Below, one piece after another: positions 4,487-63,502 of a stretch of 64,000 bases of DNA. The position numbers were made by a program, and so were the translations under genes. How positions within the stretch are numbered: the first letter of the stretch is position 1; each line of letters opens with the position of its first letter. Below the pieces are notes generated by a model. The model searched no databases, was not told the origin of the DNA, and saw only the letters and a list, made by a program, of their open reading frames with translations. Source of the stretch: the human T2T-CHM13v2.0 reference genome, Homo sapiens; NCBI RefSeq assembly GCF_009914755.1, contig NC_060928.1; one strand, written 5' to 3'.

Positions 4487-4564
4487 CTGTAGTATTGGCA
4501 TAAGGAAAAGTGAACCAGAAAGGCTATCTTTTCTCTGGGCCAAGAGGAAAATAATGGGAGATTC
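4487..4564 (-). CDS. CNB-protein exon F (78 nt), start of the second CNB domain: (R)NLPLFSSWPREKIAFLVHFSLCQYY(R)
   Basis: Acceptor ttgttttcctctctcaacag|GAA; donor AG|gttata. FLR-+PLF..W..EK+ is the motif that opens a second CNB domain. Confidence 0.87.
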
Positions 4565-4617
4565 CTGTTGAGAGAGGAAAACAAATTTATCAGAATTTAG
4601 AATCATTCTCCAGACTC

Positions 4618-5431
4618 TTTTTTTAATTTTAAAACATTTTTTGAATGTTTGTCAGTACAGAGTAGGTGTATATATTTAACATGAGATATTTTGACACAGG
4701 CATGCAATGCATAATAATCACATCAGGGTAATGGGGTGTCCATTATCTCAAGCATTTGTCCTTTGTGTTACAAACAATCCAATAATGCTCCTTTAATTAT
4801 TTTTAAATGTCCAATTAAATTATTTTTGACTATACTCACCCTCTTGTGCTAGCAAATACTAGATCTTATTCATTCTTTGTAACTACTTTTTGGCCGCATT
4901 AAATGTCCCCACTTAACCTCCATGTTTCCAAGCTTCTGGTAACCACGCTTCTATTCTCTGTCTTCATACGTTCAGTTGTTTGCATTTTTAGACCCCACAA
5001 ATAAGTAAGAACAAGTGTAGTTTGTACTTATGTGTCTGACTTATTTCACTTAACATAATGACCTCCAGCTCCATCCATGTTGTTGCAAATGACTGGATCT
5101 CATTTTTTTATGGCTGAATAGTACTCCATTGTGTATATGTACCACATTTTCTTTATCTATTCATCCGTTGGTGGAAATTTAGGTTGCTTCCACATCTTAG
5201 CTATTGTGAATAGTGCTGCAGTAAACATGGGAGTGCAGCTATCTCTTCAATATACAGATTTCCTTTCTTTGGGGTCCTAGCAGTGGGATTGCTGGATTAT
5301 ATTGTAGCTCTATTTTTAGTTTTCTGAGGAAGCTCCAAACTGTTCTCCATAGTGGTTGTACTAATTTACTTTTCCAGTAGCAGTGTACAAGGATTCCCAT
5401 TTCTCCACATCCTTGCCAGCATTTATTATTG
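4618..5431 (-). mobile_element. L1MA-type LINE-1 3' fragment
   Basis: Reverse-complemented L1 ORF2 end and 3' UTR (tccatccatgttgttgcaaatgac, tggctgaatagtactccattgtgtatatgtaccaca). Confidence 0.88.
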
Positions 5432-6362
5432 TCCAGCCTATCATTTTAGTTCTTTAAAAGTGGCTGTAATTTCTCTTGTTCATTTCATGATCAAAGTCAA
5501 AATGCATTACTTCCTAATCTATCAATCCGTACTCTTGGTCCAACAGAACCCACTAATCATTCCCTTCCATCTCACATGCACCTCCACCTGCCCGCTCTAG
5601 CCTCACCTGAGAGTAATGAACATGGCCAGGGCATCCTCCAAGACCGCGGGAGACTAAGGCTGCATTATGGGACGGTCTCCTGGGCTTCCTAGCACAATCT
5701 GGCCCTCCAAGATTATCCTTCTCCTTAGGGATATCTAGCACATGATCACCCCCACTATGACCCTGCTGGACTTAAGAGGGTGAAGCTTCAAGGACACCCA
5801 AATCCTTTCACATCTGAACCAAATGGACCGAAGCTTTGAAAGAAGCTGGAGTTTCCTCATGGCCTGTCTAGCCTCCTTGGTGAATTCTGGTGTCCAGAGG
5901 ACCTTTCATTTGCTCTAATGGCTGCCATCCAGTAACAACATCTTTCTCAATAGAGAGGTACCACTCAGTTTTTACCCATAAGGGTACAGCCTAACCCAGC
6001 CCATCAAGACAGGGACACCACACAAGCCTAAATATTCTGTTTGCCCTGAGAGGGCTGGAGGCGGTTATCACCCCTCCCATCTCTGTGGCTGAATTCTTGA
6101 CTGATGCTGTATTTCCCAGGATCTTCTCTGGTCTCCCACAAGCACTAGAGCCCTGCCTAAAATAGTTTCAGTTCACTGGAGCCCTAATTCCCACATCCAG
6201 AATATGATAGCCCTGTTTCTCCAGGCTATATCTTGCTTCCAGGACGCCTTCCAGATATACCATCTACACACCCTTCTGAATCCAAAAAGTCCTTGCTTCC
6301 CAGTCTTGCCCTACCCTCTGAGAGAGAGTTTGAATCCTGATGCCAGATTGGGTTGGACTAAA

Positions 6363-6862
6363 GCAATGTTTTCCAAATTTCTCTAGTCATAAAAGCTCAT
6401 CAGGAGCACTCATTAAAAATACAGAATCCTAAGCTCTCTCCTAAAGATCCTGCTGTGAGAGACATGGGGCAGGGCCTGGCCGTGTATTTTTTTTTTTTTT
6501 TTTTTTTTTTTTTGAGACGGAGTCTCGCTCTGTCGCCCAGGCTGGAGTGCAGTGGCGGGATCTCGGCTCACTCCAAGCTCCGCCTCCCGGGTTCACGCCA
6601 TTCTCCTGCCTCAGCCTCCCAAGTAGCTGGGACTACAGGCGCCCGCCACTACGCCCGGCTAATTTTTTGTATTTTTAGTAGAGACAGGGTTTCACCGTTT
6701 TAGCCGGGATGGTCTCGATCTCCTGACCTCGTGATCCGCCCGCCTCGGCCTCCCAAAGTGCTGGGATTACAGGCGTGAGCCACCGCGCCCGGCCCTGGCC
6801 GTGTATTTTTAGCAAATGTCCAAGATGATCGCTAGAACTTTTTGATATTTAGAGAAACACTA
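6363..6862. mobile_element. MER5-type hAT MITE interrupted by AluYa5
   Basis: caatgttttccaaa...ttaaaaatacagaatcc...tgtatttttagcaa...gagaaacactag on either side of the Alu. Confidence 0.55.
6492..6794 (-). mobile_element. AluYa5 SINE, full length
   Basis: All five Ya5 diagnostic positions, CpGs largely intact, pure T27 tail, 16-bp TSD ctggccgtgtattttt at 6476-6491 and 6795-6810. Confidence 0.95.
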
Positions 6863-60955: not shown

Positions 60956-61196
60956 TTTTTTTTTTTAATTTTTTATTTTTTGAGACAGAGTCTCGCTCTG
61001 TCGCCCAGGCTGGAGTGCAGTGGCGCTATCTCGGCTCACTGCAAGCTCCACCTCCCGGGTTCATGCCATTCTCCTGCCTCAGCCTCCCGAGTAGCTGGGA
61101 CTACAGGCACCCACCACCATGCCCGGCTAATTTTTTTTATTTAGTAGAGATGAGATTGCACCGTATTAGCCAGGATTGTCTCGATCTCCTGACCTC
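60956..61196 (-). mobile_element. AluY-type SINE, 5'-truncated
   Basis: Reverse complement ends at ctcgatctcctgacctc; ctgcaagctcc diagnostic. Confidence 0.9.
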
Positions 61197-62974
61197 TTCT
61201 TACTGAAAATGCATGCGGCATTGATGTAAGCATCTACCTTAAGGACAATGCAGAGGAAACCCTCTGGCTGACAGAAATTTTATTCCCTGAACTGACAACT
61301 ACTCTCACCTGATTAAATACAAACTTTCCATCCCTACCAGTATCTTTTTGACAACATCCAGAACAGGGATTTCCAACCTATCACCTCTGGAGCTCCTTGA
61401 AGAAGTAAAAGGGGATTGGGATTAAGTGGGATTTTGAATTTTGAATATTTCCAAATGTCTAATGAGATCATTTATTTACCTGTGATAAAACCACCCAGAA
61501 TAATATGTAAATTGTATTTGCTTCAGCTGGAATCACATCCACTCAGTATGGAAATATGGGTTATTTTTATTGTATTTTTATTTATAAAAAATAACTGATT
61601 AAAAGTGCTGATAGGAAGATATGTCTTAAATTTTCAAAAGAGGGAGATAAATGGACTATTAATGAATGACTTTTGTTCAGGAGGCAAAAACCTTTGAAAA
61701 CATAGGGTTCATGGGGCAGCAATGATTAGGAACTAGTGCACTACTGTGTAAGACAGATACCCTGCCCTTGGCTCTTGACTGTGAAAGTCCCCACTCCTAC
61801 CCCATCATCAGCATCCTCACCCCCAGCACTTCTTCCTACCCTGGAAAGCCTTTTCTGGTGATCTTTTCCTGTAAATTAGAAGTGCTTGGTAATTTAATGT
61901 CATCTTAATTGATTTATGCATATACAAGAAAGCTATCAACCTCAAAACATGCACATAATTCATAAAGACTTGAGTAAATATAGTGTCTATTTTTACATCT
62001 TCAGGATTACAATTTGTTATTTAAAATAGATTCTCTAAGAAAGATGAACTGAATTTAAATCATGTTTATTTATACTCCTTTTTCCAAGTTGCAAATTCAC
62101 TGTTAAATTGAAGTCTGCCTATGCCCACACACGAATTTCAGCTCATAGTAACAAGAATTTATATGGCTTTGATATTTACTAGTGTTAGATCCCTCTGGGC
62201 TAAAAGGATGTCAGTGAATTCAAGGTAATGTCATAAGCACAGAAAACACTGACTTTTAGAAATGTCTGGTGCCAAAAGATGATGAAAATACTTGTAATAC
62301 AGCACTTTATTCTTAGGATATTCTGAAATGCTTTATATCTTAAGATGTTTAAAAATCAATACTGCTTTTTACTTTATAGCTGGTTTACAAAACGTAGTAC
62401 ACATCCTTTAGAAGCTAAAAAACAACAACTGTAAATCCAATTTACCCAAGCATATAAAAATTTTCACAGAAGCAGAAAAGGTTCACCTAATATTTTAGGG
62501 ACAGAAATCTATATCTATGTAATGGATCACTGAAGTCTGCTAGTGAAATGTACTAGTTCCTAATCATTGCTGCCCCATGAACGCTGTGTTTTCAAAGGCA
62601 TTTGCCCCCTGAACAAAAGTCATTCATTAATAGTTCATTTATCTCTCTCTTTTTAAAATTAAAGACATATCTTCCTATTAATCAGTACTTTTGATCAGTT
62701 GTTAAATACATTAATTTATATTCAAAATTAATTATCTATCTCAAACACATTCCACAAAAAAATACACATATTAGGAACTCAAGGATCAAGATTTCTTTAA
62801 TCAGTGTACAAAATACATGAAAGGAAAGAACTGCTTCATTAGACCAAAGAAAATAGAAATACCCCAACCACCTTTATTTAATGCCATTTTGTTTTCTAAA
62901 ACACTAAAACTAAAGGAAGGATTAAGAGAGTAGAAATGTAAGAAAAATAATTTGACATGATGTTTTTTATAGTG

Positions 62975-63330
62975 TGATATGGTTTGTCTCTGTTTCCTGA
63001 CCCAAATCTCATCTTGAATTGTAATCCCCCCATGTCAAGGGAGGGAGGTGATTGGATCATGGGGGCAGTTCCCCCATGCTGTTCTCGTGAGAGGAGTGAG
63101 TTCTCAAGAGATCTGACGGTTGTATAAGTGTTTGGCATTTCCCCTGCTTGCACGTCTCTCACCTGCCACCTTGTAAAGAAGGTGCCTGCTTCCCCTACAC
63201 CTTCTGCCATGATTATAAGTTCCTGAGGCCTCCCTAGCCATGCAGAACTGTGAGTCAATTAAACTCTTTCCTTTATAAATTACCCGGTCTCAGGTATTTC
63301 TTTTTAGCAGTGTGAAAATGCACTAATACA
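62975..63330 (+). mobile_element. THE1/MSTA-type MaLR solo LTR
   Basis: tgatatggtttg...cactaataca; 5-bp TSD tagtg at 62970-62974 and 63331-63335. Confidence 0.92.
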
Positions 63331-63427
63331 TAGTGCTAGCCTGTATTTGCTTAAAATAATAAAATAAAAGCATAATTGGATAGTATTGGAATAATCATAT
63401 ATCAGAAAAACATCTTTTTTTTTTAAC

Positions 63428-63502
63428 CTCTCTGAGATTTTCTTGGCTTCTTAGATTAGGTTGAATGAACAACAATGTCTTCAGCTTTTCAAAATCTTTG
63501 CT
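63428..63502 (-). CDS. CNB-protein exon A (75 nt): SKDFEKLKTLLFIQPNLRSQENLRE
   Basis: Acceptor cactttgttttatag|AGC; weak donor GAG|gttaaa. The L..L...P..RS.E..+ motif is typical of the helix before the CNB domain in CNBD2/Epac-type proteins; in frame with exon B. Confidence 0.8.

What the first reader, a model, noticed from the sequence alone, without database searches (positions are those of the whole stretch)
4487..63502. Hidden six-exon reading frame for a CNBD2-like tandem cyclic-nucleotide-binding protein
Seen: six short minus-strand exons spread over 59 kb, each with a pyrimidine tract, AG and GT, splice in compatible phases to 551 nt (183 codons) with no stop or frameshift. Only exon C appears in the correct frame in the ORF track. 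Established: the peptide carries the CNB motifs in order (P..RS.E helix; F..LP..+..LC; YE...VLRQG....Y.IL.G; GDFIGE cassette; C...+.LLVI.KEDF..IL; FLR.LPLFSSW..EK opening domain B). This is the layout of CNBD2/CRIS-type proteins. From memory, the sequence is not human CNBD1, CNBD2, RAPGEF3/4, PRKAR or PRKG. Inference: a further paralogue, either an unannotated gene (testis/cilia plausible) or a young unitary pseudogene disabled outside this window. I cannot check its annotation status.
Basis: partly seen in the sequence, partly recalled or inferred. Interest (0 to 1): 0.92.

Follow-up and report, generated by a model that had tools for sequence, protein, structure and literature searches.

The report
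Unannotated relic of CNBD2-like gene
The six exons are real and belong to the human copy of an uncharacterised vertebrate sister gene of the sperm cAMP receptor CNBD2, but the human copy carries an early stop codon, lacks one conserved exon and has lost a key binding residue, so it is most likely a dead gene that the annotation misses.

Summary
The six minus-strand exons have AG/GT flanks and compatible phases, and give 551 nt or 183 open codons. Each matches a squirrel "CNBD2-like" protein (tblastn E 5e-5 to 2e-22).

They are exons 3-8 of a 14-exon gene spanning about 109 kb (T2T chr4:59,173,080-59,281,897, minus strand). Predicted orthologues occur in 40 database proteins, from sharks to squirrel, rabbit and bats. 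None is from a primate, murid or carnivore.

The family is a deep paralogue of CNBD2/CRIS (hhalign 99.7%, 389 columns; separate clades).

The human copy is damaged, mostly outside the window:
- An in-frame TGA at codon 25 of exon 1.
- Conserved exon 12 is not found in 33.7 kb.
- An Alu sits three codons before the native stop.
- The invariant phosphate-binding Arg is Leu.
- Replacements fall unusually often on conserved columns (Fisher p=0.013).

Against a long-dead gene: all 24 splice dinucleotides are intact, 427 codons stay open after the TGA, and exon 1 keeps CpG-island composition.

Verdict: an unannotated unitary pseudogene (about 0.75). A surviving truncated gene is not excluded. Primate alignments and expression data could not be examined.

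The parts
63428..63502 (-). Exons 1 and 2 lie beyond the window's high end; see section 9 of the full report.
   Evidence: E 2.9e-8
50711..50799 (-).
   Evidence: E 1.7e-8
44724..44883 (-). Intron positions and phases match the corresponding CNBD2 exon.
   Evidence: PF00027 E 2.6e-4; E 2e-22
42033..42116 (-). Human reads GENCLSINANLPTS against orthologue GEICLLTNxxRPxS. The Arg invariant in 23 orthologues is Leu198 (window 42087-42089).
23401..23465 (-).
   Evidence: E 4.7e-5
4487..4564 (-). Exons 9-14 lie beyond the window's low end; see section 9 of the full report.
   Evidence: (E 9.7e-9)

Best explanation
The six exons are exons 3-8 of the human orthologue of an uncharacterised vertebrate gene, a deep paralogue of CNBD2/CRIS that automated pipelines call 'CNBD2-like'. 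In species with an intact predicted gene, the 450-540-aa product has four parts. First comes a conserved N-terminal segment. Second is a canonical cyclic-nucleotide-binding domain whose binding cassette keeps the Gly-Glu and the Arg. Third is a degenerate CNB-like domain split by a low-complexity insert. Last is a helical C-terminus. By analogy with CRIS I infer a soluble cAMP/cGMP receptor; this was not tested. The human copy is a unitary pseudogene or relic. It has a nonsense codon at codon 25, conserved exon 12 is missing, and an Alu replaces the last three codons and the 3' UTR. The cassette Arg, needed for ligand binding in CRIS, is Leu. The lesions and the homology are shown. Loss of function, and any residual transcription from the CpG-rich exon-1 region, are inferred.
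For: Orthology:
- Exon C finds only squirrel, rabbit and marmot proteins of this family (81-83% identity).
- The squirrel protein in turn finds 12 colinear minus-strand exon matches at chr4:59,173,095-59,281,885 and only chance-level hits elsewhere in the genome.
- A 13th exon was added by local tblastn.
- The human translation groups with the sciurids among the six eutherian rows, a set with 100 SH-aLRT support.

Paralogy to CNBD2:
- BLASTP gives 3e-28 with 24% identity over 413 aa.
- hhalign gives 99.7% probability, E 7e-26, 389 columns.
- Intron positions and phases around the CNB-A exon are the same.
- The two groups split with SH-aLRT 100, and Marmota and Lepus have one protein in each.

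Damage in the human copy:
- The TGA at codon 25 is aligned in frame with Arg of the orthologues.
- Exon 12 was not found. It is a discrete exon, because the Miniopterus isoform P0006 skips exactly it.
- An Alu is inserted in the last codons.
- R198L lies at a column invariant in 23 orthologues. The equivalent R288Q abolishes the cAMP response of CRIS (PMC3854790, passage read).
- Human-lineage replacements split 10 in conserved against 18 in variable columns. Three other eutherians pooled split 14 against 88 (odds ratio 3.5, Fisher p 0.013).

Annotation:
- No primate protein appears among the 3 hits (22 candidates) for exon C or the 40 hits for the squirrel protein.
- The same tool given a 52-aa CNBD2 exon returns 191 proteins, including at least 11 primate genera, mouse, rat, dog and cat.
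Against: - Apart from the TGA the conceptual CDS is clean. All 12 introns keep GT-AG, all phases fit, and 427 codons are open after the TGA.
- Under neutral decay this is unlikely to last. With rates assumed from general knowledge, P(no new stop or frameshift) is 0.34 at 10 My, 0.08 at 20 My and 0.014 at 30 My.
- The first ATG after the TGA, in any frame, is in frame (codon 60), so re-initiation could give a 393-aa product.
- Exon 1 keeps CpG-island composition.
- The human end branch (0.17) is no longer than the squirrel, rabbit or bat paths.
- A leave-one-out count at fully invariant sites gives 4 of 66 for human against 0-3 of 69-72 for other tetrapods, which is not significant.
- Exon-12 skipping is annotated as an isoform in one bat.
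- Only one haplotype (T2T-CHM13) was seen, so the TGA could be polymorphic.
- Absence of primate protein models may reflect annotation practice rather than death of the gene.
Confidence: 0.75

Rival explanations
1. The locus is still a protein-coding gene that annotation has missed. Translation would start at Met60 after the early TGA, or at Met1 in people who lack the TGA. The product would be a CNBD2-like protein without exon 12 and without cyclic-nucleotide binding, kept for some other role.
For: - 427 codons are open and 24 of 24 splice dinucleotides are intact.
- That state is improbable after more than about 20 My of neutral drift (assumed rates).
- The first ATG after the stop is in frame.
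- Exon 1 has CpG-island composition.
- One bat has an annotated isoform that skips exon 12.
- The Alu at the C-terminus is mid-range in age for the locus (8.3% non-CpG divergence; range 7.1-16.1% among 13 copies), yet the frame has stayed open.
Against: - The N-terminal 59 residues that would be lost include columns invariant across 23 orthologues (C33, Y42, L56).
- Exon 12 carries the nearly invariant LEQGGIFG motif.
- Four replacements fall inside the otherwise conserved binding cassette, including the Arg.
- Replacements are enriched on conserved columns (p 0.013).
- No primate protein of this family is in the 5.8-billion-protein database, although the control search finds primate CNBD2 readily.
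- 3 of 12 donor sites have T at +3; that this makes them weak is recalled, not tested.
Confidence: 0.2
2. The frame is a chance product of short open stretches with AG/GT flanks in AT-rich intergenic DNA, or of a repeat family.
For: Five of the six exons are too short to hit Pfam on their own, and exon C is below the curated cut-off.
Against: - All six exons match the orthologue colinearly with E from 4.7e-5 to 2e-22.
- Seven further exons continue the match outside the window.
- Identity to squirrel is 73% over 427 columns.
- No other genomic locus matches better than E 0.015.
Confidence: 0.01
3. The TGA in exon 1 encodes selenocysteine or is read through, so the full-length protein is made.
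For: The stop is a TGA followed by C. That this context is comparatively leaky is recalled, not tested.
Against: Orthologues have Arg, not Cys or Sec, at this column. No SECIS family matched at E<=1 in the 3.2 kb around the last exon; the hits there were SRP-like (Alu-type) and miRNA-family matches. Exon 12 and the Arg are still missing.
Confidence: 0.01

Closest known systems
[quoted passage not shown] 2013, PMC3854790, abstract and passages read)
   Same: The two are homologous and colinear over about 390 columns, from the helix before CNB-A to the C-terminal helices. The intron positions and phases flanking the CNB-A exon are the same. In orthologues there is one Pfam-recognised CNBD with Gly-Glu and Arg in the cassette. 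The split second half carries a ..VEQGEI.GL.. / ..LEQGGIFGL.. motif in both.
   Different: Only 23-24% of residues are identical. The two form separate clades, and Marmota and Lepus carry both genes. The first ~100 residues and the CNBD2 C-terminal tail do not align. The CNBD2 control search returned proteins from a wide range of mammals, primates, mouse, dog and cat among them, and the CRIS paper reports the gene in all mammalian genomes published by 2012; this family is patchy and absent from primate, murid and carnivore protein sets. Function and expression of the CNBD2-like family are untested. A review states that CNBD2 lacks paralogs (PMC7054227, passage read).
Tandem CNB domains of PKG, PKA regulatory subunits and Epac2 (solved structures)
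   Same: The family profile aligns with Plasmodium PKG residues 38-225, that is CNB-A plus the first ~55 residues of CNB-B (E 9e-32 overall). It also aligns with Epac2, including the helix before the domain.
   Different: There is no kinase, GEF or dimerisation/docking domain. The second domain is interrupted by a ~70-residue insert, lacks the cassette Arg, and is not called by Pfam.
Human unitary pseudogenes (genes intact in other vertebrates and dead in place in humans, with introns kept); the class is recalled, not looked up here
   Same: This is a single-copy, intron-containing relic at its own locus. It has predicted intact orthologues elsewhere, a nonsense codon, an exon loss and a transposon insertion.
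   Different: It is unusually well kept, with 427 open codons and every splice dinucleotide intact. Per the hub's table it is not annotated in RefSeq for T2T-CHM13. The gene is also missing from mouse protein sets, so surveys that start from mouse proteins would probably miss it (inference).

Membership tests
Pfam PF00027 cNMP_binding | HMM score above the curated cut-off (27.5 bits) | tested here: inconclusive
Exon C scores 21.4 bits and 24.1 bits in the genome scan, both below the cut-off because half the domain lies in exon D. Orthologues score 64.9-74 bits.
Pfam PF00027 cNMP_binding (ligand-competent subgroup) | Phosphate-binding cassette with Gly-Glu and the conserved Arg | tested here: not met
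   Human keeps G-E, but the Arg is Leu198, and three further cassette residues are changed. The Arg is invariant in 23 orthologues.
Vertebrate 'CNBD2-like' gene family (orthology of the human locus) | Reciprocal best match and colinear exons | tested here: met
   Exon C finds only this family. The squirrel protein finds this locus only. 13 of 14 exons are present in order with fitting phases.
Vertebrate 'CNBD2-like' gene family (orthology of the human locus) | Placement in the tree as expected for a primate | tested here: met
   The human row lies within the six eutherian rows (SH-aLRT 100), next to the sciurids (85-88).
Vertebrate 'CNBD2-like' gene family (orthology of the human locus) | Conserved synteny (between NMU and EXOC1L in other species) | not testable with these tools
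   No non-human vertebrate genome or gene context is available here.
CNBD2/CRIS proper | Falls inside the CNBD2 clade | tested here: not met
   The two groups are separated by a branch with SH-aLRT 100. Marmota and Lepus each have one protein in each group.
CNBD2/CRIS superfamily (shared architecture) | Homology beyond the CNBD, over the second half and the C-terminus | tested here: met
   hhalign gives 99.7% probability, E 7.2e-26, 389 columns. BLASTP gives 3e-28 over 413 aa.
Unitary pseudogene | Disabling lesion in the reading frame | tested here: met
   TGA at codon 25. Exon 12 is not found. An Alu sits in the last codons.
Unitary pseudogene | No intact copy elsewhere in the genome, and not a processed or duplicated copy | tested here: met
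   Introns are retained. A whole-genome six-frame search finds no other locus better than E 0.015.
Unitary pseudogene | Relaxed selective constraint on the lineage | tested here: inconclusive
   Replacements are enriched on conserved columns (p 0.013). However, branch length is not raised, the invariant-site count is not significant, and the long open frame argues against long neutrality. dN/dS could not be computed because no orthologous DNA was available.
Unitary pseudogene | Lesions fixed in the species | not testable with these tools
   Only the T2T-CHM13 haplotype is available.

The most novel reading that the evidence does not exclude
Humans still make a protein from this locus, a CRIS-like protein started at Met60, or full-length in carriers of a non-TGA allele. 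It would have lost cyclic-nucleotide binding and exon 12 and been kept for a ligand-independent role. That would make it a missed human protein-coding gene and a natural 'receptor turned non-receptor' in the cAMP-signalling toolkit.
Probability: 0.15. Interest if true: 0.75.

Novelty: new member of a known kind. Interest (0 to 1): 0.45.

Why it matters
- Vertebrates have a second CRIS/CNBD2-type cyclic-nucleotide receptor gene that I could not find discussed in print. Full-text searches for 'CNBD2-like', 'nucleotide-binding domain-containing protein 2-like', and 'unitary pseudogene' with 'cyclic nucleotide-binding' each gave 0 papers. CNBD3/CNBD2L/CNBD2P gave only two papers whose titles and abstracts are unrelated. 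'CNBD2' with 'pseudogene' matched 10 papers (7 listed), none with either term in its title; these were not opened.
- A review read in part states that CNBD2 has no paralogue. For humans that now appears to hold only because the paralogue has decayed.
- The locus is a gap in the RefSeq annotation of T2T-CHM13, which shows no gene or pseudogene here according to the hub's table.
- It is a well-preserved case for dating gene loss in primates. It has three datable lesions (CpG-type nonsense, exon loss, Alu insertion) in a frame that is otherwise intact.
- For cAMP-signalling and sperm biology, it points to animals such as rabbit, squirrel, bats, frogs and turtles in which a CNBD2 sister gene could be studied.

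Tried and rejected
- Structure prediction of the squirrel orthologue with its alignment, to test whether the second half folds as a CNB domain, was not accepted. No fold evidence is therefore offered.
- One paper search failed on term length and was re-sent in shorter forms.
- Exon 12 was sought four ways in the 33.9 kb scanned: tblastn at E<=50, a 16-sequence exon HMM on six-frame pieces, 20-aa windows tolerant of stops, and half-exon windows. A first HMM was built from badly aligned columns and discarded. Nothing rose above noise. One 29-aa match at chr4:59183406-59183489 (38% identity, E 50) was judged chance.
- An internal domain B versus domain A profile comparison gave only P 6e-4 with 28% probability, too weak to call.
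- The leave-one-out invariant-site count and the branch lengths do not single out the human copy.
- The selenocysteine reading was checked with Rfam on the 3' end; no SECIS was found.
- The ESM Atlas look-up only repeated the CNBD2-type label.
- The joined human peptide could not be sent to Pfam or the other remote tools, so it was analysed only in the script box.
- The Alu subfamily was not assigned because no repeat library is held. Only a divergence from a local majority sequence is given.
Those parts are now listed in section 9 of the full report.
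Full report
**1. The observation**

Their lengths are 75, 89, 160, 84, 65 and 78 nt. They enter in phases 0/0/2/0/0/2 and join to 551 nt, or 183 codons, without a stop. The other two frames of the joined sequence hold 12 and 13 stops.

On the human pieces alone, Pfam support is thin. Only exon C (53 aa) hits PF00027 cNMP_binding, at E 2.6e-4 and 21.4 bits against a 27.5-bit cut-off. 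The five shorter exons hit nothing. The case rests on homologues.

**2. What the exons belong to**

Exon C, searched against 5.8 billion proteins with longer lengths allowed, found 3 proteins among 22 candidates. They come from squirrel (P0001, 469 aa), rabbit (P0002) and marmot (P0003). Identity is 81-83%, and their sources name them 'cyclic nucleotide-binding domain-containing protein 2(-like)'.

Searched back against the window's own genome in six frames, P0001 matches 12 colinear minus-strand pieces on the same chromosome, from chr4:59,281,885 (residue 3) to 59,173,095 (residue 467). Hits elsewhere are chance-level, the best at E 0.015. Local tblastn added a further exon (residues 261-282) and fixed the boundaries.

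The resulting human model has 13 exons. All 12 introns are GT-AG and every phase fits. Against the 114,706-bp locus the six score E 2.9e-8, 1.7e-8, 2.0e-22, 2.3e-6, 4.7e-5 and 9.7e-9. Chance is excluded.

**3. The family**

The full squirrel protein finds 40 proteins. By the names their sources give, they are:
- 19 mammals: sciurids, lagomorphs, bats, a mole, three marsupials, and fragmentary artiodactyl and whale models
- 6 turtles
- an alligator
- a lizard
- 9 amphibians
- 3 cartilaginous fishes
- one unnamed record

Four of these lineages were checked in the taxonomy. None of the 40 is from a primate, murid rodent, carnivore, bird or teleost.

As a control for database content, a 52-aa exon of human CNBD2 given to the same tool with the same settings returned 191 proteins. 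They include Homo, Pongo, Gorilla, Macaca, Saimiri, Aotus, Callithrix, Carlito, Otolemur, Propithecus, Nycticebus, mouse, rat, dog and cat. The lack of primate proteins for the chr4 gene is therefore not a gap in the database.

Full-length members carry one Pfam CNBD (64.9-74 bits). Its binding cassette reads GE[IT]CLLTN..R[PH].S, with the Arg invariant in 23 aligned sequences.

**4. Relation to CNBD2 and other CNB proteins**
- Squirrel protein against the gorilla/human CNBD2 cluster: BLASTP 3e-28, 24% identity over 413 residues.
- Family profile against a 12-sequence CNBD2 profile: hhalign probability 99.7%, E 7.2e-26, 389 columns. The match runs from the helix before CNB-A to the C-terminal helices.
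- The CNBD2 exon that holds the first half of its CNBD starts with one base completing a split codon and ends right after the Gly before the cassette Glu. Exon C does exactly the same.
- In a tree of 7 CNBD2 and 11 CNBD2-like rows, the two groups are separated with SH-aLRT 100. Marmota and Lepus have one protein in each. The human chr4 translation sits inside the eutherian CNBD2-like rows, next to the sciurids.

The gene is therefore a deep paralogue of CNBD2, not CNBD2 itself.

Among solved structures, the family profile aligns best with the tandem CNB-A/B of Plasmodium PKG (E 9e-32). That alignment covers CNB-A and the first ~55 residues of CNB-B. It also aligns with Epac2.

The rest of the second domain is interrupted by a ~70-residue variable insert and lacks an Arg in the cassette position. 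Pfam does not call it. A domain B versus domain A profile comparison is weak (P 6e-4). 'Tandem CNB' is thus plausible but only partly shown.

**5. State of the human copy**

Damage:
- (a) Exon 1 reads ..GARGRL-TGA-PVAGVLVHVCGL.., where orthologues read ..RLRRAA..LAHVCGL... The alignment continues in the same frame on both sides, so this is an in-frame nonsense codon at codon 25.
- (b) Exon 12 encodes 20 residues including the nearly invariant LEQGGIFG. It is a discrete exon, since the bat isoform P0006 lacks exactly these residues. It could not be found in the 33.7 kb between exons 11 and 13 by four searches. Its absence keeps the frame.
- (c) An Alu on the plus strand abuts the codon for His447. 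The human frame runs into its A-rich tail (..STH IYLFI stop). Beyond the Alu the sequence resumes ..TCA TTT TTA TTT TTA A... That restores ..STH FYF stop, matching the orthologue end ..AHFCF stop. This Alu differs at 8.3% of non-CpG sites from a majority sequence of 13 local copies, whose range is 7.1-16.1%.
- (d) The cassette reads GENCLSINANLPTS, with four replacements, including Arg198 to Leu. In CRIS the equivalent R288Q abolishes the cAMP response (PMC3854790, passage read).
- (e) At columns where the other three sampled eutherians agree, human has 10 changes in 119 conserved columns and 18 in 126 variable ones. Bat, squirrel and rabbit have 3/28, 4/23 and 7/37. Pooled, that is 14 against 88, giving odds ratio 3.5 and Fisher p 0.013.

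**6. Evidence that pulls the other way**
- After the TGA, 427 codons are open and no splice dinucleotide is lost.
- With substitution rates and an indel share assumed from general knowledge, the chance of no further stop or frameshift is 0.34 after 10 My of neutrality, 0.08 after 20 My and 0.014 after 30 My.
- The first ATG after the TGA in any frame is the in-frame codon 60.
- Exon 1 and its flank keep CpG-island composition: CpG observed/expected 0.56-0.89 against 0.195 locus-wide.
- The human end branch (0.17) equals the squirrel, rabbit and bat paths.
- The fully-invariant-site count (4 of 66) is not significantly raised.

These facts fit either a fairly recent death or a remnant still under some selection. 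They sit uneasily with the four cassette changes and the absence of any primate gene model. I could not resolve this without primate DNA, and it is the main open point.

**7. Verdict on mechanism**

In species with an intact gene, the product is most likely a soluble cyclic-nucleotide receptor of the CRIS type. The intact cassette is shown. Ligand, tissue and role are inferred from CNBD2. According to the CRIS paper, CNBD2 binds cAMP, is expressed in sperm precursor cells and is needed for normal spermiogenesis and flagellar bending (abstract read, passages).

In humans the locus is best read as a unitary pseudogene that RefSeq does not annotate on T2T-CHM13, according to the hub's table. My confidence is about 0.75. 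A living, truncated and ligand-blind gene is the rival, at about 0.2.

**8. Novelty**

Full-text searches gave the following:
- 0 papers for 'CNBD2-like'
- 0 papers for 'nucleotide-binding domain-containing protein 2-like'
- 0 papers for 'unitary pseudogene' with 'cyclic nucleotide-binding'
- 2 papers for CNBD3/CNBD2L/CNBD2P, unrelated by their titles and abstracts
- 10 papers for 'CNBD2' with 'pseudogene', 7 of them listed. None has either term in its title, and none of the abstract openings shown concerns such a locus. I saw the listing only and did not open them.

A review states in a passage I read that CNBD2 lacks paralogs (PMC7054227). Subscription journals and supplements were not searched. 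The family itself is already present as automatic gene models, so this is a new member of a known kind: an unannotated human relic of an uncharacterised CNBD2 paralogue. It is of moderate interest.

**9. Parts of the gene that lie outside the window**

All are on the minus strand. Coordinates are T2T-CHM13 chr4; the window coordinate is the chr4 coordinate minus 59,210,000. Sources are unless stated.

| Feature | chr4 coordinates | Window coordinates | Notes |
|---|---|---|---|
| CpG-island-like stretch | about 59281601-59282600 | 71601-72600 | |
| Exon 1 | 59281770-59281897 | 71770-71897 | ATG at 59281895-897; TGA codon 25 at 59281823-825 |
| Exon 2 | 59276475-59276586 | 66475-66586 | Met60 at 59276535-537 |
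| Exon 9 | 59209592-59209652 | -408 to -348 | |
| Exon 10 | 59209143-59209287 | -857 to -713 | one-codon deletion relative to orthologues |
| Exon 11 | 59208769-59208845 | -1231 to -1155 | |
| Exon 12 | not found between 59175092 and 59208768 | -34908 to -1232 | |
| Exon 13 | 59175044-59175091 | -34956 to -34909 | |
| Exon 14 | 59173080-59173316 | -36920 to -36684 | stop TAA at 59173080-082 |
| Alu insertion (plus strand) | 59172782-59173063 | -37218 to -36937 | |

Noticed in passing
genome-wide, e.g. loci L013, L016-L018, L020-L032: Residues ~22-165 of the squirrel protein give about 40 weak hits (E 0.015-9, 20-27% identity, 1-3 stops inside) scattered over many chromosomes. Several lie in open frames of about 880 aa. 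They look like copies of a dispersed repeat with chance-level similarity; LINE-1 ORF2 is my recollection, not tested.
   Followed up: no
window 16608-18015 and 19600-19968: ORFs of 122-150 aa on both strands lie within stretches the hub lists as repeat-masked. They look like LINE-1 remnants (recalled, not tested).
   Followed up: no
window 34508-34738 and 42837-43151: An AT-rich 31-bp tandem array with 7.7 copies, and a 171-bp 'tandem' row whose unit resembles Alu sequence by eye (not tested) about 0.7 kb upstream of exon D in the sense of the gene.
   Followed up: no
proteins P0008, P0009, P0027, P0035, P0037, P0038, P0039: The two phyllostomid bat models end at squirrel residue ~357-365, just before exon 12. 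The cattle, minke whale, horseshoe bat, pika and vampire bat models are fragments. The gene may be decaying independently in several mammal lineages, possibly starting at the same exon.
   Followed up: partly
window 63427 (donor of exon A) and 4486 (donor of exon F); also the donor of exon 2 at chr4:59276474, outside the window: 3 of the 12 human donor sites have T at position +3 (gttagt, gttaaa, gttata). That T is uncommon there is recalled.
   Followed up: no
L006 2925-3210 (chr4:59174519-59174804): A second Alu lies in the intron between exons 13 and 14, and the locus contains 13 near-full-length Alus in all.
   Followed up: partly
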